A stretch of DNA of 64,000 nt, from IMG/VR virus record IMGVR_UViG_3300043447_000086, one strand, 5' to 3'. Shown here one piece after another: positions 10,922 to 45,821 of the stretch; the first letter of the stretch is position 1, and each line of letters begins with the position of its first letter. Under the pieces are notes generated by a model. It did not search any database. It had not been told where the DNA came from and was given only the letters and a program-made list of their open reading frames with translations. Origin of the DNA: a virus (Duplodnaviria > Heunggongvirae > Uroviricota > Caudoviricetes). The translations under genes were made by a program, and so were the position numbers.

Positions 10922-10983
10922 ATTATACATCAAAATAGAGAAAAAGTCAACACCCTAAAAAAGAAACCCCACTCTGGGTGGGG
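10922..10983 (-). promoter_or_regulatory. Sigma70 promoter with upstream palindrome
   Basis: TTGACT-17-TATAAT (10950-10922); CCCCAC-N5-GTGGGG at 10967-10983, which could also act as a terminator. Confidence 0.85.
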
Positions 10984-10989
10984 TCTTTC

Positions 10990-11244
10990 TTAACGCTTCT
11001 GGTTCACAGCGTAAGCGATACAGAGATTCGAGGAATTACTCTCGTAAGCGCATTTAACTGCAATCGGGTCAATACCCTTTACAATAGCACTTTCAATATT
11101 TCTCTCCATTGACTTAATAGAAAGTTGATTATGGTATGTAATAGCACCAACAATTGCAAGCAGAGAAATAGTCACCGAAATAATAGAAATGTTTTCAGAT
11201 TTCAAAATAAATTCCTTTAGTTTAGGCAAGATCTTTAACATCAT
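10990..11244 (-). CDS. Small membrane protein
   Basis: One TM segment; GIDPIAVKCAY motif. Confidence 0.6.
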   Translation of the reverse strand: MMLKILPKLKEFILKSENISIISVTISLLAIVGAITYHNQLSIKSMERNIESAIVKGIDPIAVKCAYESNSSNLCIAYAVNQKR

Positions 11245-11779
11245 CGCACAATCCTAATTTTTTAGCTTCTTGTGGGCTCAACCAAACATCCTGTGGTGGA
11301 AGCAGAATTTCTCTAATCTTAGCCTCAGAAAGACCAGTAGATTTTTTATAATGCTGGATCATTTTCTTGGTAGTAAGATCAAACTCTTTCACTGTAGCAA
11401 AAAGTTCGTGTTCTTTACCAATCGCACCCCAAGAATATTGGTGTGATAGGATAGAAGTATTTGGTGTAAGAATACGCATACCTTTATCGCCAGCAATGAA
11501 AATCATTAGACCAGCAGAAGCAATTTGCCCAAGACCGATTGTACGAATTGGGATAGCTGATCCACGCATAACGTCAATCAAAGCGAACGCTGCATTTAAA
11601 TCACCACCTGGAGATGTGATAATAAGATTGAGCATCTCTGGTCGTTCTTCAGCGAAGTTAGCTTCGAAAATCCATTCAACAGCAGTTTTAACTGACTGTA
11701 AACTAATTTCCTCCATTAACAGCATGAATGAATGGCGTGAAGATTCCTCTTTCAATTGGAGGTTTAGTTTGTTCATCAT
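11222..11779 (-). CDS. clpP: ClpP-like ATP-dependent protease subunit
   Basis: ITSPGGD, GLGQIASAG (catalytic Ser), SHQ (His), D-x-WL. Confidence 0.85.
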   Translation of the reverse strand: MMNKLNLQLKEESSRHSFMLLMEEISLQSVKTAVEWIFEANFAEERPEMLNLIITSPGGDLNAAFALIDVMRGSAIPIRTIGLGQIASAGLMIFIAGDKGMRILTPNTSILSHQYSWGAIGKEHELFATVKEFDLTTKKMIQHYKKSTGLSEAKIREILLPPQDVWLSPQEAKKLGLCDDVKDLA

Positions 11780-12282
11780 ATACGATCCTTGTCTTTATAA
11801 AAAATATGTCTACCAATAACAGTAGTCTTTTGCAATTTCCATTGAGGGTTTACATAATCAGCATGGTAAAAAAGAGCACCACCTGTTATGTCAGGAATCT
11901 TTTCGTAGTTAACATATACGTGAATAGCAACATCTCTGGCTTTATCGTACAATTCCCTAGCCTTGATTGTTACTGGAGTACAGAACCAAGAAAACTGACA
12001 AGTAGAGTTTACCTTTTGTTTCACTACAGAGCAAATATCTTTTGGAAATCTTGGGTCTTGAGTTCTGTTAAGTGTAACTAAAGCAACAGCAACCTTTCCA
12101 TCATTAGATTCACCCTTTGCTTCGTGGTAAATGTTTGCTGCCAAACAATCTATCTGTTTTTGTGTTTCTTTGGTTAATTGTGTGTATTTTATTTCTAATA
12201 ACTTATCTGTTTGCTCTGTTATACCTAGTAACGTTACCAAACAAAAAGCTATTGCTATGAGAGGTATGTAAATACTTCGCAT
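11776..12282 (-). CDS. SleB-like cell wall hydrolase
   Basis: CLAANIYHEAKGE, CQFSW, ALFYHADYVNPQW, IGRHIFY. Confidence 0.9.
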   Translation of the reverse strand: MRSIYIPLIAIAFCLVTLLGITEQTDKLLEIKYTQLTKETQKQIDCLAANIYHEAKGESNDGKVAVALVTLNRTQDPRFPKDICSVVKQKVNSTCQFSWFCTPVTIKARELYDKARDVAIHVYVNYEKIPDITGGALFYHADYVNPQWKLQKTTVIGRHIFYKDKDRI

Positions 12283-12329: not shown

Positions 12330-12608
12330 TCAGGTGGACTTTTTGCTAGTCTTTTCTATTGTAGTTTGTGGGATTTGTGATACGAAACTGTTTAGCTCTG
12401 CAGCCTTTTTAATAACTTCAGTTTCGCTTGGGAATGCTGGAAATCCAGGGTGTTCAGGAATGGCTTGCCCATTGATCTTAGCAAAGTCGCATTTAGATGC
12501 GTACTCATTGCTCACCTTTTCTCGCAGACCGTAGTAGTCTTGCTCCAACATTTCTTTTGCCATCTTGAGAAGTTCAAGACGGATTTCAAATGGCGTTAAG
12601 TTTGCCAT
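12330..12608 (-). CDS. Conserved phage hypothetical protein
   Basis: LTPFEIRLELLKMAKEML motif; strong SD AAGGAG. Confidence 0.75.
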   Translation of the reverse strand: MANLTPFEIRLELLKMAKEMLEQDYYGLREKVSNEYASKCDFAKINGQAIPEHPGFPAFPSETEVIKKAAELNSFVSQIPQTTIEKTSKKST

Positions 12609-12695: not shown

Positions 12696-12899
12696 TTATT
12701 TAGCTTCTGGTTTTTTCTTCGGAGTAGGCTTGGTAGCAGAAGGTGGAGCTTTAGGTGCAGCTTCCTTCTTTGGTTCAGCCTTCTTAGCTGTGTCTTTCTT
12801 TGCAGCAGCTGCCATCTTCTCAGGAGTAGGTTGTTTTGCTGCTTGAGCCATAACGCCAGTAGCAACAGTCAATGCTAAAATTGCGATAATTGATTTCAT
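12696..12899 (-). CDS. Small secreted Lys/Ala/Pro-rich protein
   Basis: Signal peptide MKSIIAILALTVATGVMA; SD AAAGGA. Confidence 0.65.
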   Translation of the reverse strand: MKSIIAILALTVATGVMAQAAKQPTPEKMAAAAKKDTAKKAEPKKEAAPKAPPSATKPTPKKKPEAK

Positions 12900-12919
12900 A
12901 GAAAATTTCCTTTGTTAAG

Positions 12920-13225
12920 TGGTGGTTATTCTGTTACGAGGAAACCACCGAAACCCTAAGCAGTGTTTAGGCTGCTAATGCGAACAGTTCGTCGTTTGCG
13001 TTTACGTTTTTTGCTTCTTCGACCGAGTTTCCCCAATCCTACGGGTTTCACATTCCCGTGCTGTCCACTCTGTTACTCTTTGCCCTGTCGAAACCATGGC
13101 ATCCCCATCAAAAGTATATTGACGACATTTCTGGTCCAATTCCATGGTGTGGGACCAATATACTTTTGGTGGAGATGGGGGGAGTCGAACCCCCGTCCAG
13201 AACACTTTTCTCTTTGCTTCATACA
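12920..13225 (-). ncRNA. ssrA: Permuted (two-piece) tmRNA; tag ANDELFALAA
   Basis: T-arm and CCA piece (13198-13167) precede the 5' GGGGAUG end (13106); G3-U70 pair; tag ORF 12999-12967; outer ends approximate. Confidence 0.9.
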
Positions 13226-13263
13226 GCAATAATCATCTATTTAACAATTATATCTTATTATCA

Positions 13264-13845
13264 TCACAAAAGCAAGTTTTTCATATCTTGCAAAGATTTT
13301 GTCTTAAAGTTGAAAAAAATACATGTTGAGATTGCACTTGTATAAAATTCTTTGTATGACGTAAAATCTACAATGTTCAATATGTTTCTATTTAGCTGCA
13401 AATTCTCAACTAACCTTAAGTCAGCTTTATTGGCGCTAGTGAGGATAGATGATGTCCTGTGCTCTCGTAAATTAGAAGTTTTCGGTTCATATATTCGAAA
13501 AGAACACTCTGTATCAGAAAGATTCATAATCATCCCAGAGTTGTTTCTACCAACTTCTTTTTTAACCGTGCTCGTATCTACAGAAGAAAACTGAACAACT
13601 CTGCAGACAATGTCGAATTTACCAAGATCAATGTTTTCAAATTTCTCTTTGAGAGAGTTATCAATTAAGGTTGGATCTAAGCAGCACCAGCTGGTGAATG
13701 TATTAGAGTCAGAATACATTTTCTGATAGTAGTAAGTCTTTGGGACAAGAACGCCATCAGAGTCATAATCAAAATACTTTGGGAAGTATTCCTGTGATAA
13801 GAAATCTGCTAGGTCTTTGTTATCATAAACAAATGACTTATACAT
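13264..13845 (-). CDS. Hypothetical AT-rich protein
   Basis: 193-aa ORF overlapping the upstream stop. Confidence 0.6.
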   Translation of the reverse strand: MYKSFVYDNKDLADFLSQEYFPKYFDYDSDGVLVPKTYYYQKMYSDSNTFTSWCCLDPTLIDNSLKEKFENIDLGKFDIVCRVVQFSSVDTSTVKKEVGRNNSGMIMNLSDTECSFRIYEPKTSNLREHRTSSILTSANKADLRLVENLQLNRNILNIVDFTSYKEFYTSAISTCIFFNFKTKSLQDMKNLLL

Positions 13846-37315: not shown

Positions 37316-37391
37316 TGGAGCGGGCAAAGAGACTCGAACTCTCGACATCTTCCTTGGCAAGGAAGTGCTCTACCAACTGAGCTATACCCGC
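37316..37391 (-). tRNA. tRNA-Gly(GCC)
   Basis: Cloverleaf; loop TTGCCAA; encoded CCA. Confidence 0.95.
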
Positions 37392-37408
37392 ATAATTCTA
37401 TTTATGCC

Positions 37409-37556
37409 ATAATTAAGTGCATTCCCAAACGATTGTCAATGTCGTCTGTAAGTATTATTGTGTTACCACGAGCCTCGCTCTGCAGTGCTATCTCGTTCTG
37501 GCACAACTTTTCGAGGAACCTGAAACCCCGCAAAAGACAGAAACACACTTAATTAT
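37409..37556 (-). ncRNA. Candidate structured RNA with long closing stem
   Basis: ATAATTAAGTG...CACTTAATTAT terminal inverted repeat. Confidence 0.45.
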
Positions 37557-37680
37557 AGTGACTGGTGATTACGCACACCAGTCAATGCGCCCGTCCCCAA
37601 GCGACTAGGGTTTTCCTAAATAGGTGTAGGTCACGAGATTGCCGTCTCTACCTACTCTAACATAAAAGGACTATGCCAGC

Positions 37681-38154
37681 ATGAGTATTTATACATACAC
37701 CCAAAAGTCATTTGACTTACTAAATCTCCAACTCTCTAAGTTATTCGACATCGAATATGTTCAGATCGATCTGACTGATGAAGAACGAACAGTCGAACGA
37801 GTAAAACACACAAGATTCACCAATCCTGGGTTTCCTGGAGTTGGTCGTAAAGCAGCAGAAACCAAGAGAAAACTTGGTATCCCTACAGGACTAACACCAG
37901 AAGCTGCACATCGTATGGTAGAAACCAAACGTAAGAAGTATGGCTCTAATACGTACCATATGCAAAATGCAGCAATCAGAGCAAAAGCAAAAAGCAAATG
38001 TTCAGAACTTGCTAACCGTCCGATAGTAGAACAACTTAGACAATTGGCGAAAATACACCAATTGAAACTTGGATCAGGATGGGTTCGTAAACCCGATCAC
38101 TGGATCCAAGAAAAGATAGACCAGCTTACGCTAGGTCGTATCGTGGCACCATAA
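37681..38154 (+). CDS. Antisense-oriented basic protein, possibly homing-endonuclease-related
   Basis: Repeated ETKRK motif; CTAAATA (37616-37622) and hairpin upstream; SD AAAGGA. Confidence 0.55.
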   Translation: MSIYTYTQKSFDLLNLQLSKLFDIEYVQIDLTDEERTVERVKHTRFTNPGFPGVGRKAAETKRKLGIPTGLTPEAAHRMVETKRKKYGSNTYHMQNAAIRAKAKSKCSELANRPIVEQLRQLAKIHQLKLGSGWVRKPDHWIQEKIDQLTLGRIVAP

Positions 38155-39559
38155 GCGTTTTAAGCATAATGGCGTGAGGAGTGAAGTTCTCAGTGTCGCC
38201 ACCAAGAACACCAACCATGATGGCTGGCGAGAAACCAGACACAAGGGCTACGCCACGAGTGTCATACTTGACTGGCACGTTGTCGTGCGAATTCAAGTTC
38301 CAGAACACGATCTTTGGCAGATCGTATCCAGCGTCAGTGAACTTGCGTTCGATCATCTTCATTGCTGAGTCATCGAAACGAGCGCAAGCATCAAACTGCA
38401 TGTCTGACATGATCAGAAGAACTTCTGGCATTTCTTCTTGTGGTACGTTACCTTCCTTGGCAACACGAAGGATTTTTTCCATCGCCTTGATCAAGTCAGT
38501 ATTCATACCCCAGTTAGAGTCAACCATTTGCTTAACCTTCTGAACGATGTTACCCTTTAGGTGCAACAGTTCTGGAGAACCAGAGAAAGTCAGGAATGTA
38601 TCCTTGAACTTTCCAGTGTTCTTGTCTGCACAGTACAGACCAAGAGAAACTGCAACGTCCAAGCAAGTAGTCTTGCTTGCAGAACCACGACCTGCTGGGC
38701 AAGTCATAGAACCAGAAACGTCAACCAACGGCAACACGTTAGCGTCACCGATGAAGTTTTCCAGTGCATCCCATTGTGCTTGCAACGCACCCAACTCAGT
38801 AGAGTTGTACTTGTTGTTATAAGCACCGATAACACCCTTCAACACATCATATGGGTACACAGCACCAGCGTTGATCTTCACGTTCATAGTGCGATCCTTA
38901 GGATCCTTGACCAACTCTGCAACGTACTTAGCGTACTCTTGAGTGTTACGGAAGAATGCCTTCTTGTAACGAGCATGTGCCACAGAAGGTACGTGAGAGA
39001 AGTTGATTTCATCCCAGTTCTTAGCGCACATTTCTTGTTCAACGACCTTAGTCAATTCAACAAGAGACTTACGATAGAACTTTGGAGACATGCCGAAGAA
39101 ATTACGGATTTCAACAGCCAACTCACCCTTACGTGGAGTCCACTTAGCAGCCAGACCATTCTTTGCACGCAGGGCATCGCCCAGCATAGTGAATGCCTTG
39201 GACTTCAGCTTGTCGTTCTTCACAACAAAGATGTCATCCCAACGACCGATCTCTGGAACCTTCATCAACAGCTGTGCAGCTGCATCTGGGTCATGCTTAT
39301 CCAAGTAAGCAAGAATTTGACGGAACAATTCACGTTCGCCAGCACCACCACGAGCATCACGAACCCATTGGGCGATACGCAATGCGATGTCTTTGTTTTC
39401 TACGTAAGCAGCAACAAAGTCCTTAGTGATGTCTTTACCACGTGAAGCACCGATTTTGAAAAACAGGTCTACGCATGCAGATGCAGTAGACTTGCGAGCC
39501 ACCATACCATTAGTAGTACGAGTGGATTGATTTTGAACCGCAGAAACAAAAGTGTTCAT
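38126..39559 (-). CDS. DUF2828-family TROVE-like/vWA protein (Ro60-like architecture)
   Basis: RDARGGAGER, GRWDD, LAAKWTPR, VPSVAH, vWA MIDAS VDVSGSM, IMSDMQFD, FWNL; SD AGGAG; start re-called. Confidence 0.8.
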   Translation of the reverse strand: MNTFVSAVQNQSTRTTNGMVARKSTASACVDLFFKIGASRGKDITKDFVAAYVENKDIALRIAQWVRDARGGAGERELFRQILAYLDKHDPDAAAQLLMKVPEIGRWDDIFVVKNDKLKSKAFTMLGDALRAKNGLAAKWTPRKGELAVEIRNFFGMSPKFYRKSLVELTKVVEQEMCAKNWDEINFSHVPSVAHARYKKAFFRNTQEYAKYVAELVKDPKDRTMNVKINAGAVYPYDVLKGVIGAYNNKYNSTELGALQAQWDALENFIGDANVLPLVDVSGSMTCPAGRGSASKTTCLDVAVSLGLYCADKNTGKFKDTFLTFSGSPELLHLKGNIVQKVKQMVDSNWGMNTDLIKAMEKILRVAKEGNVPQEEMPEVLLIMSDMQFDACARFDDSAMKMIERKFTDAGYDLPKIVFWNLNSHDNVPVKYDTRGVALVSGFSPAIMVGVLGGDTENFTPHAIMLKTLMVPRYDLA

Positions 39560-39605
39560 ATGACACTCCTTTACAAATAACAGGCAATAAAAGCCTAAAT
39601 CAAAA

Positions 39606-39780
39606 CAACAGGATAGTTTCCTTCTTTTTGTTTCCAGTGAGAAATCGAAACTCACCTTGAGAGAACCGTCACACGATAACCACCTTCAAAGCCCATACAG
39701 GCTCCAGTGATTATCACAGTTCTTTCAGTTCTAAGTGGTGGCATGGAGCCACCAAATAAATTGTTTGCTGAACCTATCCT
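39606..39780 (-). ncRNA. CAGCAA/GUUG element A
   Basis: AGGATAG-GTTCAGCAA...CTATCCT-GTTG; T-arm-like GTGAGTTTCGATTTCTCAC; starts at the promoter 39793-39821. Confidence 0.75.
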
Positions 39781-39792
39781 AACAAGAGAGCA

Positions 39793-39821
39793 ATTATACA
39801 TCAAATATAATTGCAAGTCAA
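39793..39821 (-). promoter_or_regulatory. Sigma70 promoter
   Basis: TTGACT-17-TATAAT. Confidence 0.85.
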
Positions 39822-40103
39822 CGGGATGATCGGGCTAATCGAGTAGTTTTACTTGAAAACATCGTGCTCCCTTTCGGGCAGATACCCCACGAAAAATCAT
39901 CCGAATTCTCATCGGCTTATCCTGTGTAACAGGCACTAGGTACGCATTCGGGCGTAACTATCTGACTCCTAATAGGGGTCACAAGGCATAAGAGCATGCA
40001 ATAGTCTTTACCAACCTAGCCCACAAAATTGACACCTTACGATGTTTCCTCCTGTAGTGGGCTACTCTTAAGTCAGTATTGTTTATACTGCTGAATTCAT
40101 CCC
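39819..40103 (-). ncRNA. CAGCAA/GUUG element B
   Basis: GGGATGA-ATTCAGCAG...TCATCCC-GTTG; starts at the promoter 40116-40144. Confidence 0.7.
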
Positions 40104-40115
40104 AACTAAGACATA

Positions 40116-40144
40116 ATTCTACATCAAAACTTCTTGCAAGTCAA
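40116..40144 (-). promoter_or_regulatory. Sigma70 promoter
   Basis: TTGACT-17-TAGAAT. Confidence 0.8.
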
Positions 40145-40167
40145 CACTTATTTCAAGAAATTTTAGG

Positions 40168-40194
40168 AAAAAAAGAGCAGTGTCTCCACTGCTC
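40168..40194 (-). terminator. Intrinsic terminator
   Basis: GAGCAGTG/CACTGCTC stem plus U7. Confidence 0.8.
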
Positions 40195-40299
40195 GAAATG
40201 CATTTCTGCATGATCCCAGTCTAGCTGGTATTCTATTTAGCGCAATAATCTTTGTCGATTAATCTGTATTTAAGGGATGTTTGCACAAATTCTTTTAGA

Positions 40300-40566
40300 T
40301 TAGATTGCTGTTTTTGCAGTAACAACAGCGTCAGCTGCTGCTGGTGTACCTTCAGTAATAGGTACAATGTGTTCTGCAGTAGTCAATGATTCACCATCAA
40401 TATCTTCGCTAATCTTAATAGTTCTATCAAGAATTAGGTCGATGTGATCAGTTGTCATTTCATCTAGGCTAGCATAACCTAGAAGTTTGTCTAACAACGA
40501 ATGTTCGATGGAGATTGTCCCATATTCATGGGTATGTTCTGTGATTGTTTTGACACGCTTGCGCAT
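40300..40566 (-). CDS. Hypothetical protein
   Basis: SD GAGG; CTAAATA late promoter near 40627. Confidence 0.6.
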   Translation of the reverse strand: MRKRVKTITEHTHEYGTISIEHSLLDKLLGYASLDEMTTDHIDLILDRTIKISEDIDGESLTTAEHIVPITEGTPAAADAVVTAKTAI

Positions 40567-40636
40567 AAGTGAGTTCCTCTTTGTTATTATTATTATTGGG
40601 AATGGCTCGTCTGTGCGAACCTAATATTATTTAGAC

Positions 40637-40671
40637 AAAAAAAATCCCTGGAACCGAAATTCCAGGGATTT
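40637..40671 (-). terminator. Intrinsic terminator
   Basis: AAATCCCTGGAA/TTCCAGGGATTT stem plus U-tract. Confidence 0.85.
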
Positions 40672-40697
40672 AATACAAAAAATTTTAAATTATTTTA

Positions 40698-41180
40698 TCA
40701 AGCAACTTTTCTGTTTGCCATAATATGTTTCAATCTGTCTGCGCAGTAAGATGCAGCAAATGCTTGTGGCTTAACCATAGGCACTACGTTACACATACCA
40801 CGAATGTATCCAGTTGCTTCTTGAATAACACAGCTAGACCCATACTTTTCGTTAGGGTTGATGTCTAAGTGGATTTCGACATCTCTGTCTTCCAACACAT
40901 CGTGTAGCTTTTGATATAATTCAGCAATCTTGTATACTTCGTTCATTAAACGCATACGTGGTCTGTTCTTCTTTTGATCCCAGTCACGTTCACGTTGAAC
41001 TTCTCCGAAAATCTTACAACCGTGTTTACCGTCAATGTGAACAACAATTGCAAGGGTGTAATCTGCGTACCATTCGTTACCAATCGGGAATCTTTCAGAA
41101 TCTCCACCGATGTAGATTTTTGTTTCTGGAGATTGAGCCTCGATGAAAGCCTTTACTTCGTCGATGTCAATACGCTTCAT
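40698..41180 (-). CDS. RNase H-like protein (DUF458/YkuK family)
   Basis: KIYIGGDS, IVVHIDG, EIHLDIN, AASYCAD. Confidence 0.8.
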   Translation of the reverse strand: MKRIDIDEVKAFIEAQSPETKIYIGGDSERFPIGNEWYADYTLAIVVHIDGKHGCKIFGEVQRERDWDQKKNRPRMRLMNEVYKIAELYQKLHDVLEDRDVEIHLDINPNEKYGSSCVIQEATGYIRGMCNVVPMVKPQAFAASYCADRLKHIMANRKVA

Positions 41181-41210
41181 AATACACCTTCGCTTTCTTT
41201 GTTACAAAAC

Positions 41211-41284
41211 TGGAGCGGGTAGGGAGAATCGAACTCCACTCAGCGCAGCTTGGAAGGCTGGCGTCTCACCTCGAGCTTACCCGC
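41211..41284 (-). tRNA. tRNA-Gly(TCC)
   Basis: Cloverleaf; CCA. Confidence 0.9.
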
Positions 41285-41290
41285 ATAATT

Positions 41291-41366
41291 TGGTGCCCAC
41301 AGTCGGATTCGAACTGACCACCTACGCATTACTAGTGCGTTGCTCTACCAAATGAGCTATGTGGGC
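41291..41366 (-). tRNA. tRNA-Thr(AGT)
   Basis: Loop CTAGTAA; canonical cloverleaf; CCA. Confidence 0.9.
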
Positions 41367-41367
41367 T

Positions 41368-41442
41368 TGGTGGAGGATAGCGGAATCGAACCGCTGACTC
41401 AAGCGTGCAAGGCTAGTGTTTTCCCAATTAGACTAATCCCCC
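41368..41442 (-). tRNA. tRNA-Ala(TGC)
   Basis: G3-U70; loop CTTGCAC. Confidence 0.9.
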
Positions 41443-41597
41443 GAATTTTCTTTCTGTGCAGAACCTAACTTTTCTGCATCTTCTGTTGTCATACCACCAG
41501 AAGGTTTCTTGCCAAAGATGGCTTCCCAATTATTATTAAATTCTTCCTTGGGAACACTGAATGGTCGTGGAGCAGAACCTTTACCACCGTCACTCAT
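41433..41597 (-). CDS. 54-aa phage peptide
   Basis: Manual translation MSDGGKGSAPRPFSV; stop lies inside the tRNA-Ala 5' end. Confidence 0.55.
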   Translation of the reverse strand: MSDGGKGSAPRPFSVPKEEFNNNWEAIFGKKPSGGMTTEDAEKLGSAQKENSGD

Positions 41598-41713
41598 CGT
41601 CCTTGACCTCTACTCTTCTTGCGAGTCTTTCTCGCTTTATTAAGAGTGCTAGACTTACTTCCATTCTGAGAAGTTTTCTTGACAACTCTCTGACGTTTGC
41701 TATTACCTTTCAT
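41594..41713 (-). CDS. 39-aa basic peptide
   Basis: Manual translation MKGNSKRQRVVKK...GQGR; SD GAGG. Confidence 0.5.
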   Translation of the reverse strand: MKGNSKRQRVVKKTSQNGSKSSTLNKARKTRKKSRGQGR

Positions 41714-41729
41714 GGCTTCCTCTAAAATT

Positions 41730-41805
41730 TGGCTCCCCAGCGTGGGATCGAACCACGGACACCTTGATTAACAGTCAAGTGCAACTACCGCTGTGCTACT
41801 AGGGA
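41730..41805 (-). tRNA. tRNA-Asn(GTT)
   Basis: Loop CTGTTAA. Confidence 0.92.
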
Positions 41806-41812
41806 ATAAAAA

Positions 41813-41889
41813 TGGTGCGGATGGTGAGACTCGAACTCACAAAATTTGGCTTCTAAGACCAACACGTATACCAATTCCATCACATCCGC
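41813..41889 (-). tRNA. tRNA-Leu(TAG), short variable loop
   Basis: Loop CTTAGAA. Confidence 0.88.
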
Positions 41890-41906
41890 ATAATACTACT
41901 TATCTA

Positions 41907-41982
41907 TGGTCTCCCTAGAGGGATTTGAACCCCCACCACATGCTCCCAAAGCATGGACGCTACCTGATTACGCCATAGAGAG
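41907..41982 (-). tRNA. tRNA-Pro(TGG)
   Basis: Loop TTTGGGA. Confidence 0.9.
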
Positions 41983-42441
41983 ATAATTCTTTACATAATC
42001 ATCAATTATCGGTTGAACAACATCACGATATTTGCTGTGAACATACTGATGATGTGTCGGACAAAGAGGGACTAGATTTTCTGGTCGATTATCAGCATGC
42101 ACCTCATTATAGTGATGCACCTCAACAATCTTCTCTTCTCCACACACAACACATTTCTTACCATGATAGTGCCAGCACGTTGTCTGATACGTATCATCTT
42201 TCCAATTGGGATTATTAGTCCCACTTCTAAAGTATGTGTTCGAACACGAATAAGAACAGGTAACACCTTTCTTAGAATGCATCGTTCCACACACTGGACA
42301 TTCTTTTAAATTAACTGGGTTTTTATCACAAGCATTTTCGTGCCGTTTGATATTACCACAGGTAATTGACTTACTACAGTGAACACAGGCTATTTTAGTC
42401 TGGTTTGCTTTTTGGAGATTCGATAGAGAGTTTGTATTCAT
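41968..42441 (-). CDS. HNH endonuclease with Zn-finger motifs
   Basis: CVVCG...EVHHYNEVHADNRPENLVPLCPTHH; CTAAATA upstream. Confidence 0.85.
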   Translation of the reverse strand: MNTNSLSNLQKANQTKIACVHCSKSITCGNIKRHENACDKNPVNLKECPVCGTMHSKKGVTCSYSCSNTYFRSGTNNPNWKDDTYQTTCWHYHGKKCVVCGEEKIVEVHHYNEVHADNRPENLVPLCPTHHQYVHSKYRDVVQPIIDDYVKNYLSMA

Positions 42442-42492
42442 ACTATTATTTAGTATTTCTCAAACTTCAAACTCCGATACTCCGAAAAATCT

Positions 42493-42566
42493 TGGTGCCC
42501 CACGACAGAATCGAACTGCCGTATTCGGATTACAAAACCGACGTAATACCATTATACGAGTAGGGC
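42493..42566 (-). tRNA. tRNA-Thr(TGT)
   Basis: Loop TTTGTAA. Confidence 0.88.
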
Positions 42567-42572
42567 AAAAAA

Positions 42573-42635
42573 CAACAGGTTAGTTTTTGCGGTTTCAATT
42601 ACAAGTTGAATGCTTTTGATTGCTGAACCTAACCT
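42573..42635 (-). ncRNA. CAGCAA/GUUG element C (Thr-UGU anticodon-like hairpin)
   Basis: AGGTTAG-GTTCAGCAA...TTCAA-CTTGTAA-TTGAA...CTAACCT-GTTG. Confidence 0.75.
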
Positions 42636-42640
42636 AAAAC

Positions 42641-42714
42641 TGGATGCGGGTGGAGGATTCGAACCTCCGATGCTGCGAGCTTATGAGACTGCAGTGGTGA
42701 CCACCCTACCCGCT
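42641..42714 (-). tRNA. tRNA-Met(CAT), initiator-like and atypical
   Basis: Loop CTCATAA; 1:72 mismatch; short D-arm. Confidence 0.65.
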
Positions 42715-42719
42715 ATAAC

Positions 42720-42795
42720 TGGTACCTCGTGACGGGATCGAACCGCCGACCTTCTCCTTGTAAGGGAGCTACTCATACCGCTGAGTTAACGAGGC
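42720..42795 (-). tRNA. tRNA-Val(TAC)
   Basis: Loop CTTACAA. Confidence 0.92.
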
Positions 42796-42802
42796 ATAAA
42801 AA

Positions 42803-42860
42803 CAACAGGATTCGCTTTCTTTTCATTAACAGTGAAATTATATATTGCTGAAAGAATCCT
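42803..42860 (-). ncRNA. CAGCAA/GUUG element D (Asn-GUU anticodon-like hairpin)
   Basis: AGGATTC-TTTCAGCAA...TTTCA-CTGTTAA-TGAAA...GAATCCT-GTTG. Confidence 0.75.
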
Positions 42861-42865
42861 AAAAC

Positions 42866-42940
42866 TGGCGACTCGTGGGAGAATCGAACTCCCATAATCG
42901 GATAGACAATCCGAAGTAATGACCATTATACGAACGAGCC
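42866..42940 (-). tRNA. tRNA-Asp(GTC)
   Basis: Loop TTGTCTA. Confidence 0.92.
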
Positions 42941-42946
42941 AAATTT

Positions 42947-43039
42947 TGGTGGAGGCAGCTGGAGTCGAACCAGCATTGTTTACCACGAGGGAACGGATTT
43001 ACAGTCCGCTGCAGAACACGCCATATCTACAATGCCTCC
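42947..43039 (-). tRNA. tRNA-Tyr(GTA)
   Basis: Loop CTGTAAA; long V-arm; enlarged D-loop. Confidence 0.85.
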
Positions 43040-43043
43040 AAAA

Positions 43044-43245
43044 TTTATACAACTGACAACTTATTTGTATCACCAATGTTATAGATACCATTCACCGTAA
43101 TTAAAGCAGCTGCACGGTTTCGGTACGTCAGGGATAGTCACTACTTGGTTGTTGCTAGTTTAGCCTCACTTGCGGAGATAACCTCACCACTTCTTGCGGA
43201 AGTCGGTTTTCGTAACATCTGACAACAAATTGTCATGTGTATAAA
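43044..43245 (-). ncRNA. Candidate structured inter-tRNA RNA
   Basis: Ends pair (TTTATACA/TGTATAAA and TGACAA/TTGTCA); internal GCAA-loop hairpins. Confidence 0.45.
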
Positions 43246-43253
43246 CTTTTTAC

Positions 43254-43450
43254 CAATTGTTAGTGTTGCTACGTTATAGACAGCCTTCACCGTACTGTCG
43301 TTTGTTTTTAACGCTTCAGCTTATCTCCAATGCGTCCAAAGGATATTCGCTTTCCGATCAACTCCTGATTACAAGTATTCGATCATGTAACCACTCAGAG
43401 ATTCACTATCCTGCGATCACAGGAATTTTCCATAACAACACTAACAATTG
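43254..43450 (-). ncRNA. Candidate structured inter-tRNA RNA
   Basis: Perfect 15-bp terminal inverted repeat CAATTGTTAGTGTTG. Confidence 0.5.
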
Positions 43451-43523
43451 GTACTCGGTACGAGAGTCGAACTCGTCTTCTCAGGTTGAAAACCTGATGT
43501 CCTAACCGATAGACGAACCGAGT
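43449..43523 (-). tRNA. tRNA-Glu(TTC)
   Basis: Loop TTTTCAA. Confidence 0.92.
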
Positions 43524-43619
43524 AAAATGGCAGTTTTTTGGATGACTGCCAACCTATCTAAGACCTCATGCATCCGACTTCACGTAACGACTTAGAGAGG
43601 ATTTCAGAACAGAACCTAA

Positions 43620-43648
43620 ATTATACACTAACTATACTTGCTAGTCAA
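43620..43648 (-). promoter_or_regulatory. Internal sigma70 promoter in the tRNA array
   Basis: TTGACT-17-TATAAT. Confidence 0.8.
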
Positions 43649-43657
43649 CAAGTATTT

Positions 43658-43731
43658 TGGAGTAGGTGACAGGAATCGAACCTGCTTCCATGGGTTTGCA
43701 ATCCAGTACCTGTCCAACTGGTTCCACCTAC
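43658..43731 (-). tRNA. tRNA-Cys(GCA)
   Basis: Loop TTGCAAA; U73. Confidence 0.88.
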
Positions 43732-43738
43732 ATAACTC

Positions 43739-43813
43739 TGGTCTCGCCTGCAGGAATCGAACCCACATTCGTAGGGTAGAAGCCTACTGTATTATCCGTT
43801 ATACGAAAGCGAG
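43739..43813 (-). tRNA. tRNA-Arg(TCT)
   Basis: Loop CTTCTAC. Confidence 0.9.
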
Positions 43814-43819
43814 AAATCT

Positions 43820-43902
43820 TGGTGCGGGTAGTCGGACTCGAACCGACAAGCCGAAGCGGCAGATTTTAAGTCTGCTATGTTTACCAATTTCACCATACCC
43901 GC
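43820..43902 (-). tRNA. tRNA-Leu(TAA)
   Basis: Loop CTTAAAA; long V-arm. Confidence 0.92.
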
Positions 43903-43911
43903 AGAACCTTT

Positions 43912-43940
43912 ATTATACAACAAAAATCATTACAAGTCAA
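43912..43940 (-). promoter_or_regulatory. Internal sigma70 promoter in the tRNA array
   Basis: TTGACT-17-TATAAT. Confidence 0.8.
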
Positions 43941-44014
43941 TGGTTGGCTGACTGAGAATTGAACTCAGACTCAACCGATTATGAGTCGGCTGCTTTACCA
44001 TTAAGCTATCAGCC
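43941..44014 (-). tRNA. tRNA-CAT (Ile2 or elongator Met)
   Basis: Loop CTCATAA; identity ambiguous. Confidence 0.85.
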
Positions 44015-44019
44015 AAATC

Positions 44020-44096
44020 TGGTGCGCAAGGAGAGACTCGAACTCTCAGAATCTTGATTTTGAGTCAAGCACGTATACCAATTCCGTCACATGCGC
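44020..44096 (-). tRNA. tRNA-Leu(CAA), short variable loop
   Basis: Loop CTCAAAA. Confidence 0.88.
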
Positions 44097-44102
44097 AAAA
44101 AC

Positions 44103-44196
44103 TGGTACTCCCACTAGGATTCGAACCTAGATCGCTCGCTAATCTGGCGACGGAACTGCGTATAAAGCAGGTGTTTTACCATTAAACTATGGGAGC
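44103..44196 (-). tRNA. tRNA with UAU (Ile) anticodon and long variable arm
   Basis: Loop TTTATAC; about 25-nt V-arm; CCA. Confidence 0.75.
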
Positions 44197-44300
44197 ATGG
44201 CTCCGTCTTGCTGATTGTTTTATCTCGTCAGGGGAGAACCACAATCAACTATTTTAACTCGGGAGAACGGAAGCACCGAGATTAGTCGTCGACACAACAC

Positions 44301-44388
44301 TGGCAGAGAGTAAGGGATTCGAACCCTTGCGCCCATTTCTGAACGACGGTTTAGCAAACCGCTGGCTTAACCACTCACCCAACTCTCT
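44301..44388 (-). tRNA. tRNA-Ser(GCT)
   Basis: Loop TTGCTAA; long V-arm; G73. Confidence 0.92.
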
Positions 44389-44389
44389 A

Positions 44390-44956
44390 TTAACGATTAC
44401 CGTTCTTGAATCCCACAGTACCACCTTGCTCTTGAATCTTCTTCAAGACGTCCTCAAACAAGATGGGTCTGAAGTCTGTTTGCTCGACGCATACAGAGTA
44501 GTACTGTGGGTCAACTGTAGTAACACCATACTTGTCAGTGACCATAACACGATTGCTGTGCAAGTGTCCATGGATGTTACAACCAAAACGATACAATTGT
44601 TGAGGATGAACAGGAATGTGACTTAACAACACTCCATTCATCACATGGTAACTGCGGATATCTCGGAAGAACGGAGTGTAGTCTTCCAACCTAAAGATAT
44701 CGTGGTTACCTTTAATCAAAACCTTATCACCGTTCAAACGATGTAAAGTAGATAAAGCCTTACGGTTGATCACCACATCACCTAAGTGGTAGACCTTGTC
44801 AGTTGGCTTTACAGTTTCGTTCCACATCTTGATCATGGCTTCGTCCATTTCTTCTGGATTGTCCCATGGTCTCAATTTAGAACCATCATCACGCAAGAAC
44901 TTACACACACCAGCGTGACCAAAGTGTGTGTCACTTGTTAAGAATACGCTTGGCAT
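44390..44956 (-). CDS. Metallophosphoesterase within the tRNA array
   Basis: SDTHFGH, HLGD, KGNHD, HIP, HGHLH. Confidence 0.9.
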   Translation of the reverse strand: MPSVFLTSDTHFGHAGVCKFLRDDGSKLRPWDNPEEMDEAMIKMWNETVKPTDKVYHLGDVVINRKALSTLHRLNGDKVLIKGNHDIFRLEDYTPFFRDIRSYHVMNGVLLSHIPVHPQQLYRFGCNIHGHLHSNRVMVTDKYGVTTVDPQYYSVCVEQTDFRPILFEDVLKKIQEQGGTVGFKNGNR

Positions 44957-44979
44957 ATGTTTCTCCATAAAAAAATAAT

Positions 44980-45080
44980 CAACAGGCTAGTTTGTTTGCA
45001 GTGGGAATTGAACCCACACGGTTTGATTAGAAGTCAAATTGGCGACCATCGCCATGCGTTGTGTTTGCTGTAACTAACCT
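44980..45080 (-). ncRNA. CAGCAA/GUUG element E (tRNA-Arg-like body)
   Basis: AGGTTAG-TTACAGCAA; D-like hairpin; TTTGA-CTTCTAA-TCAAA; T-arm GTGGGTTCAATTCCCAC; CTAGCCT-GTTG. Confidence 0.75.
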
Positions 45081-45239
45081 AAAAGGGTTTAGAGAGTTCC
45101 AACTATCTTTCTCAAGGACTCGTCGGAGTTGTCTCGATTGAGAGAGTTTAAACTACCTTGTGTTGCTACTGGTGTGTCATGCTCAAGAAATAGGGCACTA
45201 GCGCACAAGGGACTCATCTCATCGTCTATCTCTAAATTC

Positions 45240-45331
45240 TGGCGGAGAGCAGAGGAGTCGAACCCCATCCCATTTCTGAGAACCCAGTTTTCAAGGCTGG
45301 TCGGCGCACCAACGCACCTGCATTACTCTCC
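45240..45331 (-). tRNA. tRNA-Ser(TGA)
   Basis: Loop CTTGAAA; long V-arm. Confidence 0.88.
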
Positions 45332-45437
45332 ATAAATTGTCTATCCCGATCGGACTTTCACCGACAATATACTAGATACGTTAAATCTAGTCTTCCTAAT
45401 GATACGTGCTTTCTTCACACGAATGACGAGACATATT

Positions 45438-45527
45438 TGGTGGAAGCGGTGAGATTCGAACTCACGGAGCCATTGCTGACTCGCTAGTTTTCTAGACTAG
45501 TTCCTTAAACCGCTCGGACACGCTTCC
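45438..45527 (-). tRNA. tRNA-Ser(AGA)
   Basis: Loop CTAGAAA; long V-arm; A73. Confidence 0.85.
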
Positions 45528-45533
45528 ATTAAA

Positions 45534-45640
45534 CAACAGGTTAGTTTGATTGCCACCGTGGCACATCACCAGAATGCCTTTCGGCTGGTTGGTAATGCTG
45601 GAATCGAACCAGCTAATTTTATTTTTGCAGAACCTAACCT
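45534..45640 (-). ncRNA. CAGCAA/GUUG element F (T-arm first, YrlA-like order)
   Basis: AGGTTAG-GTTCTGCAA; GCTGGTTCGATTCCAGC then ATTACCA; two more hairpins; CTAACCT-GTTG. Confidence 0.75.
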
Positions 45641-45646
45641 AAAACT

Positions 45647-45732
45647 TGGTGGATGTGGTAGGGATCGAACCTACCTATCTCGAAAGACCATGGGGTTACA
45701 GCCCACTAGAACGCCATTGTTCTATCACATCC
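45647..45732 (-). tRNA. tRNA-Tyr(GTA)
   Basis: Loop CTGTAAC; long V-arm. Confidence 0.88.
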
Positions 45733-45738
45733 ATAACT

Positions 45739-45813
45739 TGGTACGCCCTGAGAGAATCAAACTCCCACTTCAACGTTCGTAGCGTTGTGTAATATTCATT
45801 TTACTAAGGGCGC
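45739..45813 (-). tRNA. tRNA-Arg(ACG)
   Basis: Loop CTACGAA. Confidence 0.88.
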
Positions 45814-45821
45814 ATAAAATA

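What the first reader, a model, noticed from the sequence alone, without database searches (positions are those of the whole stretch)
12920..13225. Phage-encoded circularly permuted (two-piece) tmRNA
The minus strand reads T-arm + CAUCUCC-ACCA (to 13167), then a 60-nt intervening hairpin (AAAGTATATTG/CAATATACTTT), then the 5' end GGGGAUG (13106) with a G3-U70 Ala determinant. P2a CAGGGC/GTTCTG pairs across the two pieces, and the tag ANDELFALAA follows. Permuted ssrA is known in alphaproteobacteria, some cyanobacteria and some betaproteobacteria; a phage copy is unusual and is often missed by standard annotation.
Basis: partly seen in the sequence, partly recalled or inferred. Interest (0 to 1): 0.8.

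Follow-up and report, generated by a model that had tools for sequence, protein, structure and literature searches.

The report
Phage two-piece tmRNA gene, known kind
This T4-like aquatic phage carries a real, rearranged ("two-piece") gene for tmRNA, the RNA that frees stalled ribosomes and tags unfinished proteins for destruction; such phage genes are already published, so this is a clean new member of a known group.

Summary
On the minus strand, ARAGORN calls a permuted tmRNA with tag ANDELFALAA. Rfam tmRNA_permuted scores 131 bits (cut-off 47) and beta_tmRNA 114 bits (cut-off 84). The gene lies among T4-like phage genes (gp32, gp59, PhoH, 32 tRNAs).

Comparison with 28 homologues from viral contigs shows compensatory changes in the P2 helices, T-arm, acceptor stem and the stem closing the 60-nt intervening segment. 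G3·U70 is invariant. The tag is conserved as a peptide through synonymous codon changes, so the gene is under selection for tagging, not a relic or decoy.

Nine complete related phage genomes lack SmpB, so the RNA presumably uses host SmpB.

It is not new as a kind. Two-piece tmRNAs in T4-like aquatic phages were published in 2022 (Melnitz; 53 phage cases). Beta-type copies are annotated in Stenotrophomonas phages. My pattern scan found 58 viral contigs, and this scan has reported the same kind on other DNA many times.

One lead goes beyond the literature I could search. The tmRNA sits at the head of a gene string ending in a phage ClpP with an intact catalytic triad. This layout held in 46 of 50 relatives. 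It recurs in an unrelated Ralstonia jumbo phage. All three isolates with the nearest ClpP also carry a permuted tmRNA.

The parts
13247..13275 (-). Sigma-70-like promoter candidate: TTGCTT (13275-13270), 17-nt spacer, TATAAT (13252-13247). The predicted start is near 13240.
   Evidence: Read from the sequence. The consensus scanner did not flag it because the -35 hexamer matches only 3 of 6. In homologues, a perfect TATAAT lies upstream in 13 of 55 unique sequences, against 4.8 expected from shuffles. Ten of these sit at one fixed offset, 7-9 nt before the RNA body, several with a TTGAC-like -35.
13167..13240 (-). Acceptor piece. It holds the 3' strands of helix P2 (UGCUGU 13228-13223; GUUCUG 13203-13198), the T-arm (13194-13178), the acceptor 3' strand CAUCUCC (13177-13171), discriminator A13170 and the encoded CCA (13169-13167).
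   Evidence: Rfam alignments. RNAalifold on 29 phage homologues recovers all of these helices. Pair counts with slid-partner controls support them.
13107..13166 (-). Intervening segment, 60 nt, presumably removed during maturation. It is a hairpin whose base (13166-13156 with 13121-13111) continues the acceptor helix. ACCA faces the invariant UGAU leader (13110-13107). There is an inner stem, GGUCC 13155-13151 with GGACC 13137-13133. It carries no conserved ORF.
   Evidence: For the basal stem, 10 pairs are 91.7% canonical across 29 sequences, 9 of 10 pairs show changes on both sides, and slid controls give 33-56%. The single-sequence fold recovers the stem.
12915..13106 (-). Coding piece. In order it contains: the acceptor 5' strand GGGGAUG (13106-13100); the GGUUUCGAC D-loop analogue; the P2 5' strands (CAGGGC 13087-13082; ACAGCA 13064-13059); a hairpin CGGG/CCCG (13058-13042); an inserted GAAA-tetraloop hairpin (13038-13021); the tag frame; and a 3' hairpin GGUGGUU/AACCACC (12949-12921) with a conserved 15-nt loop UCCUCGUAACAGAAU.
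   Evidence: The GNRA hairpin and the 3' hairpin stems show compensatory changes in the alignment (read by eye). The mature 3' end is not determined.
12967..12999 (-). Tag reading frame: resume codon GCA (12999-12997) through UAA (12969-12967), encoding ANDELFALAA.
   Evidence: ARAGORN. Among 38 distinct phage tags, positions A1, N2, A9 and A10 are invariant as residues while using 2-4 synonymous codons. Position 8 is Leu in 33 of 38, spread over 5 Leu codons.
12696..12899 (-). Small ORF (67 aa, signal-peptide-like N-terminus). Its ribosome-binding site and ATG follow about 20 nt after the tmRNA 3' hairpin, with no terminator between them.
   Evidence: It has no family match and no homologue in the related loci, although several relatives also have a short MKK... 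ORF at this spot.
11222..11779 (-). Phage ClpP (185 aa), same strand, about 1.1 kb downstream of the tmRNA. It follows a 92-aa ORF (12330-12608) and a cell-wall hydrolase (11776-12282). It is a possible functional partner, not part of the RNA gene itself.
   Evidence: Pfam CLP_protease, E 1.3e-29. The Ser, His and Asp of the catalytic triad align with those of solved ClpP. The layout holds in 46 of 50 related loci.
10964..10986 (-). First strong intrinsic-terminator-like site downstream of the tmRNA promoter on this strand. A weaker one lies at 12321-12304.

Best explanation
This is a functional ssrA gene of the circularly permuted, beta-type form, resident in a T4-like aquatic myophage.

Likely mechanism. 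Steps marked 'shown' rest on results here. Steps marked 'inferred' follow from established tmRNA biology (the Caulobacter two-piece tmRNA of Keiler et al. 2000, as cited in PMC9004378, and the processing statement in PMC11915505).

1. A promoter just upstream makes one precursor (inferred from the motif and its conservation).
2. The precursor folds so that the acceptor stem is extended by a conserved stem closing the 60-nt spacer (shown by covariation).
3. tRNA-processing enzymes cut 5' of G13106 and trim to the encoded CCA at 13167. This leaves an acceptor piece and a coding piece held together by helix P2 (pairing shown; cleavage inferred).
4. Host AlaRS charges it through G3·U70, which is invariant in all 29 homologues (determinant shown; charging inferred).
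5. Host SmpB and EF-Tu deliver it to stalled ribosomes (inferred; no phage SmpB in 9 complete relatives or 4 isolate genomes).
6. Translation resumes at GCA and adds ANDELFALAA, a ClpXP-type degron (peptide-level selection shown; tagging inferred).

The likely benefit is to keep ribosomes free while the phage destroys host messages. The tagged fragments would feed proteolysis.
For: - ARAGORN permuted call and tag.
- Two Rfam models matched over their full length, well above their gathering scores.
- Phage context: gp32 is 54% identical to Melnitz, and gp59, PhoH and 32 tRNAs are present.
- 58 viral contigs carry homologues, with tags of the form ANDxx[F/Y]ALAA.
- Fixed synteny, PhoH / PD-(D/E)XK nuclease / tmRNA / hydrolase / gp59 / gp32, in about 35 of those contigs.
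- RNAalifold predicts 42 pairs, 22 of them with compensatory changes.
- Helices are 92-100% canonical, against 0-86% for slid partners.
- The U·G at acceptor position 3 is invariant in 29 of 29.
- Synonymous substitution preserves the tag residues.
- No SmpB in 9 complete relatives or in 4 isolate genomes, with positive controls in 10 of 14 bacteria.
Against:
- The host is unknown, so compatibility with host SmpB and AlaRS is assumed.
- The single-sequence fold is not significantly more stable than shuffles (z -1.41).
- No pseudoknot upstream of the resume codon could be demonstrated; only a hairpin is seen.
- There is no terminator after the gene, so the mature 3' end is undefined.
- Only 64 kb of a genome of roughly 170 kb is visible, so absence of SmpB is inferred from relatives.
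Confidence: 0.85

Rival explanations
1. The tmRNA and the downstream phage ClpP work as one phage-borne 'tag and degrade' module. The tmRNA heads a transcription unit that also makes ClpP. The tag feeds truncated, mainly host, proteins to a protease built from phage ClpP and a host unfoldase, which recycles amino acids for phage synthesis. This refines the purpose of the RNA; it is not a different identity for it.
For: - ClpP is on the same strand 1.1 kb downstream with an intact triad.
- There is no strong terminator between the tmRNA promoter and 10986-10964.
- A tmRNA lies upstream of ClpP in 46 of 50 related loci that have enough flank.
- All three isolated phages with the closest ClpP (BUCT-ZZ01, Phosso, RsoM2USA) carry a permuted tmRNA.
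- In RsoM2USA the tmRNA lies about 1 kb upstream of ClpP on the same strand.
- No ClpX is found in the complete relatives G001 and G002, so a host unfoldase would be needed.
Against: - The 46 of 50 are close relatives, so they count as roughly one evolutionary event.
- Large phages tend to carry both kinds of gene.
- In BUCT-ZZ01 and Phosso the two genes are tens to hundreds of kilobases apart.
- Complete tmRNA-bearing relatives G003 and G005 lack ClpP.
- A weak terminator-like site at 12321-12304 may split the unit.
- No binding or expression data exist.
Confidence: 0.3
2. The gene is counter-defence or a spare part. The phage copy replaces host tmRNA that is depleted, cleaved or shut off during infection, in the same way that the 32-tRNA array replaces host tRNAs.
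For: - The gene sits in a genome with a near-complete tRNA set.
- In some relatives it is embedded among tRNAs and apparently co-transcribed with them.
- Beta-type permuted copies occur in phages of hosts that seem to have ordinary one-piece tmRNA: Stenotrophomonas, Synechococcus elongatus and Ralstonia. The S. elongatus control does not pass the permuted model's cut-off. This fits a self-sufficient phage lineage trait.
Against: No nuclease that targets tmRNA as a defence is identified here. The idea cannot be distinguished from simple supplementation with these data.
Confidence: 0.15
3. The RNA is a decoy that titrates SmpB and blocks host trans-translation, as proposed for the tRNA-like-domain-only RNA of mycobacteriophage DS6A (PMC4131195).
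For: The tRNA-like domain is the most conserved part. No phage SmpB is present.
Against: A full tag frame is present and is conserved at the peptide level through synonymous changes. The resume codon and stop codon are kept in all homologues. A decoy would not need these.
Confidence: 0.04
4. It is not a working phage gene. It is host DNA in a chimeric assembly, or the leftover of an integration site in ssrA.
For: tmRNA genes are common integration targets, and phages can carry fragments of them (PMC9004378).
Against: - The gene is complete at both ends.
- T4-like genes flank it on both sides, on the same strand.
- It holds the same position in dozens of independent viral contigs, including complete genomes with terminal repeats.
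- Covariation shows ongoing selection.
Confidence: 0.01

Closest known systems
Two-piece tmRNA of Methylophilales phage Melnitz and pelagimyophages (Buchholz et al. 2022, PMC9004378)
   Same: Both are permuted ssrA genes in T4-like aquatic myophages of the same broad group; gp32 is 54% identical. Both lie just downstream of an early-type promoter and both end in an ..ALAA tag. Neither phage has SmpB.
   Different: Melnitz is alpha-type (RF01849, 106.7 bits), has a 14-residue tag and is followed by a glutamine riboswitch. The window's gene is beta-type, has a 10-residue tag and no riboswitch, and lies upstream of a ClpP.
Beta-type permuted tmRNA of Stenotrophomonas phages (Menderavirus: Yut2, Marzo, Bhz51; GenBank annotation)
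   Same: It passes the same Rfam models (RF04321 119 bits, RF01850 93-95 bits). It is about 71% identical over the tRNA-like domain and has an intervening segment of 56-57 nt.
   Different: Its genomic setting differs: it sits between tRNAs next to ribonucleotide reductase. The tag is longer (ARAGORN reads VAANDDSYTVRIAA). The phage genus and host are different.
Bacterial two-piece tmRNA of some Betaproteobacteria (Rfam RF01850; Sharkady and Williams 2004, cited in PMC9004378 and PMC11915505)
   Same: The architecture and the best-scoring subtype model are the same. The tag resembles proteobacterial ANDE..ALAA tags (from my own knowledge, not tested).
   Different: The window's gene is carried by a phage. 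It lacks the terminal terminator hairpin of the model (alignment) and has an extra GNRA hairpin before the tag. I could not obtain bacterial beta-type sequences, so I could not place it on a tree.
One-piece tmRNAs of mycobacteriophage Bxz1-like phages and Bacillus phage G (PMC4131195; PMC12484599)
   Same: They are phage-encoded ssrA genes in large phages that also carry many tRNAs. Phage G also encodes ClpP and ClpX.
   Different: They have the standard, non-permuted gene form. In phage G the tmRNA and ClpXP are not adjacent and no link between them was proposed.

Membership tests
Permuted (two-piece) tmRNA, Rfam RF04321 / beta subtype RF01850 | Score above the curated gathering threshold over the full model | tested here: met
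   RF04321 scores 131.4 bits against a cut-off of 47, model positions 1-213. RF01850 scores 114.4 bits against 84, positions 1-331. The alpha and cyano subtype models lost to the beta model in the clan competition.
Permuted (two-piece) tmRNA | Circular permutation: the T-arm, acceptor 3' strand and CCA lie upstream of the acceptor 5' strand, separated by an intervening segment | tested here: met
   ACCA ends at 13167, a 60-nt segment follows, and GGGGAUG starts at 13106 on the minus strand. ARAGORN flags it 'tmRNA*'.
tmRNA (any form) | tRNA-Ala-like domain: 7-bp acceptor stem with G3·U70, T-arm with a GGUUCGAnUCC-type loop, discriminator A, CCA | tested here: met
   Read. The U·G pair is invariant in 29 of 29 homologues. 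One T-stem pair shows all four Watson-Crick types.
Permuted (two-piece) tmRNA | Helix P2 formed between the two pieces | tested here: met
   The outer P2 (6 bp) is 93.6% canonical with 5 pairs changed on both sides. P2a (5 bp) is 100% canonical. Slid controls give 24-62%.
tmRNA (any form) | Tag reading frame with an Ala resume codon, a hydrophobic C-terminus (..ALAA) and a stop codon | tested here: met
   ANDELFALAA plus UAA at 12999-12967. Peptide-level conservation through synonymous codons.
tmRNA (any form) | Pseudoknot PK1 upstream of the resume codon | tested here: inconclusive
   A covarying hairpin lies at 13058-13042. I could find no second stem supported by covariation (by eye). The Rfam models do not encode pseudoknots.
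Permuted (two-piece) tmRNA | Precursor is cleaved into two mature RNAs | not testable with these tools
The only indirect support is the covarying stem that closes the spacer.
tmRNA (any form) | Alanylation, SmpB binding and tagging activity | not testable with these tools
   No biochemical data. No phage SmpB in relatives, so a host factor is assumed.
Phage-encoded tmRNA | The gene lies within a bona fide phage genome | tested here: met
   T4-type gp32, gp59, tail-tube cap and PhoH are present. Homologous loci lie in complete viral genomes with terminal repeats.

The most novel reading that the evidence does not exclude
In this phage clade the permuted tmRNA is the leader of an operon that ends in a phage ClpP. 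More generally, this ClpP family travels with permuted tmRNA in unrelated large phages: adjacent in Ralstonia phage RsoM2USA, and elsewhere in the genome in BUCT-ZZ01 and Phosso. That would make it a phage-owned tag-and-degrade module that borrows only SmpB and an unfoldase from the host.

A second, weaker point concerns the subtype. The 'beta' or 'alpha' type of a phage tmRNA may be a phage-lineage trait that does not report the host's tmRNA type. If so, it weakens the use of tmRNA type as evidence for host switching.
Probability: 0.3. Interest if true: 0.55.

Novelty: new member of a known kind. Interest (0 to 1): 0.25.

Why it matters
As a gene it adds one well-resolved example to a known class, and it shows again that GenBank phage records often leave such genes unannotated.

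Its value is as a clean reference case. It has a plain 60-nt spacer, a clear promoter and exact piece boundaries. It also has many homologues, which give covariation for the precursor stem and peptide-level selection on the tag.

If the tmRNA-ClpP linkage is functional, large phages would bring their own protein-quality-control or recycling arm. That is testable in cultivable relatives: Ralstonia phage RsoM2USA, Synechococcus phage BUCT-ZZ01 and the Stenotrophomonas Menderavirus phages.

Tried and rejected
- **Whole genome.** None is held for the window.
- **Nearest bacterial tmRNA and host.**
  - A family-specific pattern (tag start plus the conserved 15-nt loop) in genome-contig hit only 5 MAG contigs.
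  - Three of these contigs carry a permuted tmRNA, and tRNAs lie on the same locus in all three, so they look like mis-binned phage DNA. The Lachnospiraceae hit has no tmRNA and is probably chance.
  - Sampling 150 genomes of the class of one such MAG with RF01850 found no bacterial beta-type tmRNA above cut-off.
  - The phage gene therefore could not be placed against bacterial ones, and the host stays unknown.
- **Sharkady and Williams 2004.** The paper is not held.
- **Single-sequence folding.** z = -1.41, not significant. The MFE prefers a local UUGCU/AGCAA hairpin over the outer P2. The comparative evidence is what counts.
- **Partner for the conserved loop UCCUCGUAACAGAAU.** I looked by eye at pairing with GUUCUG and with the 5' tail. 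The candidates do not covary across homologues with other loop sequences, so I rejected them.
- **Protein gene in the spacer**, as earlier reports of this scan found in other phages. There is none here. The only frames (13073-13222 and 13002-13229) run through the conserved RNA core and are spurious. Among the ClpP-linked relatives that my pattern caught, spacer lengths range from 25 to 200 nt.
- **Promoter.** The consensus scanner did not call TTGCTT-17-TATAAT; it called a weaker ATGAAA-16-GATAAT.
- **tmRNA versus neighbouring-protein identity.** I compared the two to look for cassette exchange. The region is mosaic: one relative has ClpP 98% identical but tmRNA 84% identical with a different tag. 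I did not pursue this.

Full report
**Observation**

I read the minus strand of 12800-13400.
- The T-arm is G13194-G13190 / UUCGACU / C13182-C13178.
- The acceptor 3' strand CAUCUCC is at 13177-13171, followed by ACCA ending at 13167.
- A 60-nt segment (13166-13107) follows. Its ends, AAAGUAUAUUG and CAAUAUACUUU, pair.
- GGGGAUG is at 13106-13100 and completes a 7-bp acceptor stem with G3·U70.
- GUUCUG (13203-13198) pairs with CAGGGC (13087-13082).
- The frame GCA...UAA at 12999-12967 encodes ANDELFALAA.

ARAGORN independently calls a permuted tmRNA with that tag, and 32 tRNAs further along the window. Rfam gives tmRNA_permuted 131.4 bits (cut-off 47, E 1.8e-25) and beta_tmRNA 114.4 bits (cut-off 84, E 4.4e-34). 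Both matches are full length.

**What the window is**

No whole genome is held. The neighbouring genes are T4-type:
- gp32 (E 3e-44), the gp59 loader, a tail-tube cap, PhoH, UvdE and ribonucleotide reductase;
- a PD-(D/E)XK exonuclease and two wall hydrolases.

By gp32, the nearest isolates are Methylophilales phage Melnitz (54%), a Synechococcus phage and Pelagibacter phage HTVC008M. No isolate is close at the DNA level. Complete viral genomes of about 171 kb with terminal repeats share 74-93% nucleotide identity over a 10-kb test stretch. This is an uncultured T4-like aquatic myophage, and its host is unknown.

**Relatives of the RNA**

A pattern spanning the T-loop, CCA, a 40-70-nt gap and the 5' strand found 58 viral contigs. 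The closest are 85% and 83% identical. ARAGORN calls a permuted tmRNA in 57 of the 58 viral contigs. Most tags have the form ANDxx[F/Y]ALAA.

About 35 of the contigs share the window's gene order, all on one strand: PhoH, endolysin-like gene, PD-(D/E)XK nuclease, tmRNA, a 92-aa ORF, cell-wall hydrolase, then gp59 and gp32. The gene is therefore a long-standing resident at a fixed position in this phage group.

**Is it under selection as a tmRNA?**

I aligned the window with 28 homologues. RNAalifold predicted the outer P2 helix, P2a, the T-arm, the acceptor stem and a continuation of the acceptor helix into the spacer. Of the 42 predicted pairs, 22 show changes on both sides.

My own count with slid-partner controls gave:

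| Helix | Canonical pairs | Pairs changed on both sides | Slid controls |
|---|---|---|---|
| Outer P2 | 93.6% | 5 of 6 | 24-62% |
| P2a, T-arm, acceptor | 100% | 1-2 per helix | 38-86% |
| Spacer-closing stem (10 bp) | 91.7% | 9 of 10 | 33-56% |

The loop of the spacer cannot be aligned, yet its closing stem is kept. The U·G pair at acceptor position 3 is invariant in all 29.

For the tag, I compared 38 distinct sequences. A1, N2, A9 and A10 never change as residues but use 2-4 codons each. Position 8 is Leu in 33 of 38, spread over five Leu codons. That pattern means the frame is translated. It argues against a decoy or a decaying copy.

Single-sequence folding is unimpressive (z -1.41), though it does recover the acceptor stem and spacer helix.

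**Anatomy beyond the Rfam model**

- *Promoter.* A TTGCTT-17-TATAAT motif lies at 13275-13247. In homologues a perfect TATAAT is enriched (13 of 55, against 4.8 expected). Ten of these sit at one fixed offset, 7-9 nt before the RNA body. Other homologues follow a tRNA directly and are probably co-transcribed with it.
- *Extra hairpin.* The window and some relatives carry a hairpin with a GAAA loop (13038-13021) between the PK1-position hairpin and the tag. Its stem shows compensatory changes.
- *3' hairpin.* After the tag there is a hairpin (12949-12921) with a 15-nt loop that is nearly invariant in this phage group. I could not find its partner.
- *No terminator.* The terminator hairpin of the beta model is absent. 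A ribosome-binding site and the ATG of a 67-aa ORF follow within about 20 nt.

**Cofactors**

No SmpB was found in nine complete related genomes or in Melnitz, BUCT-ZZ01, Phosso and RsoM2USA. The control genomes were positive. The RNA must therefore use host SmpB, AlaRS and EF-Tu. This is an inference, and only 64 kb of this genome is visible.

**The ClpP lead**

A 185-aa ClpP (Pfam E 1.3e-29) lies 1.1 kb downstream on the same strand. Its Ser, His and Asp align with the catalytic triad of solved ClpP. The first strong terminator after the tmRNA promoter is at 10986-10964, beyond ClpP; a weaker site lies at 12321-12304.

- Of the 80 closest ClpP loci in viral contigs, 50 have at least 3 kb upstream. 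A permuted tmRNA lies upstream on the same strand in 46 of these. These are close relatives, so this is roughly one event.
- More telling are the only three isolated phages with a close homologue of this ClpP: Synechococcus phage BUCT-ZZ01 (56%), Sinorhizobium phage Phosso (51%) and Ralstonia phage RsoM2USA (37%). All three carry a permuted tmRNA.
- In RsoM2USA the tmRNA lies about 1 kb upstream of ClpP on the same strand. In the other two the genes are far apart.
- ClpX is absent from the two complete relatives that carry ClpP, and from BUCT-ZZ01 and RsoM2USA. It is present in Phosso.
- Two complete tmRNA-bearing relatives lack ClpP.

I found no paper that links phage tmRNA with phage ClpP. 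Phage G has both, but they are not adjacent and were not discussed together. I rate a functional module at about 0.3.

**Subtype and host**

Beta-type permuted tmRNAs occur in phages of Stenotrophomonas, S. elongatus and Ralstonia. Alpha-type ones occur in Melnitz (an OM43 host) and Phosso. The S. elongatus control genome does not pass the permuted model's cut-off. I believe the other hosts have one-piece tmRNA, from my own knowledge, not tested here. The subtype therefore looks like a trait of the phage lineage. That bears on the use of tmRNA type as evidence for host switching in PMC9004378.

**Comparison with what is known**

Phage tmRNAs have been listed since the Bxz1-type mycobacteriophages and phage G (PMC4131195). 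Buchholz et al. 2022 described the two-piece gene of Melnitz behind an early promoter. They counted 53 two-piece cases among 18,146 phage genomes, mostly aquatic, and found the gene in 17 of 47 Melnitz-like contigs. The 2025 tmRNA database lists 79 phage sequences. Several Menderavirus records annotate the beta-type gene.

This scan has also reported phage two-piece tmRNAs on other DNA many times. Some of those reports involve a small gene in the spacer. This window has the plain form with a 60-nt hairpin spacer.

**Verdict**

This is a genuine, selected, phage-encoded permuted tmRNA: a new member of a known kind, with low interest as such. The tmRNA-ClpP layout and the conserved precursor stem are the points worth carrying forward.

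Noticed in passing
window 11222-11779 (-): A phage ClpP with an intact Ser-His-Asp triad lies 1.1 kb downstream of the tmRNA on the same strand. The nearest homologues in isolated phages (BUCT-ZZ01, Phosso, RsoM2USA) all sit in genomes that also carry a permuted tmRNA. In RsoM2USA the two genes are adjacent.
   Followed up: partly
window 12696-12899 (-): A 67-aa ORF with a signal-peptide-like N-terminus starts about 20 nt after the tmRNA 3' hairpin, with no terminator between. Several relatives also have a short MKK... ORF at this spot, but the proteins are not detectably homologous.
   Followed up: partly
L106 (IMGVR_UViG_3300047392_000113) and other ClpP loci L106-L185: The tmRNA region is mosaic. 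One relative has ClpP 98% identical but tmRNA only about 84% identical, with a different tag (ANDSVYALAA). Tag positions 4-5 differ freely among close relatives. Spacer lengths in this clade range from 25 to 200 nt.
   Followed up: partly
L062, L065, L066 (bacterial MAG contigs labelled Haliscomenobacter, Alteromonadales, Lake Erken bin): Contigs carrying this phage-type permuted tmRNA together with tRNA genes are binned into MAGs of unrelated phyla. They are probably phage DNA mis-binned into bacterial genomes.
   Followed up: partly
G006:C1:132926-133161 (Haliscomenobacter MAG): A second match to the permuted tmRNA model (67 bits, above cut-off) lies on the largest contig of a Bacteroidota MAG, a phylum I expected to have standard tmRNA.
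   Followed up: no
L104 (Sinorhizobium phage Phosso, 349596-350198): The alpha-type permuted tmRNA match spans about 600 nt, so the intervening segment is very long. ARAGORN does not call it.
   Followed up: no
L103:2875-2950 (Synechococcus phage BUCT-ZZ01): ARAGORN calls a tRNA with anticodon CUA (labelled Pyl), that is, an amber-suppressor-type tRNA, about 1 kb from the tmRNA.
   Followed up: no
window 37316-47556 (-): An array of 32 tRNA genes includes unusual anticodons: Thr-AGU, Ser-AGA and Ile-UAU. Two ARAGORN calls score weakly in Rfam (31-40 bits). Rfam also calls a tRNA at 44997-45057 (35 bits) that ARAGORN does not list.
   Followed up: no
L102:1886-1934 (Melnitz): The glutamine riboswitch directly after the Melnitz tmRNA reported in PMC9004378 is reproduced (RF01739, 52.8 bits). 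No riboswitch accompanies the window's tmRNA.
   Followed up: yes
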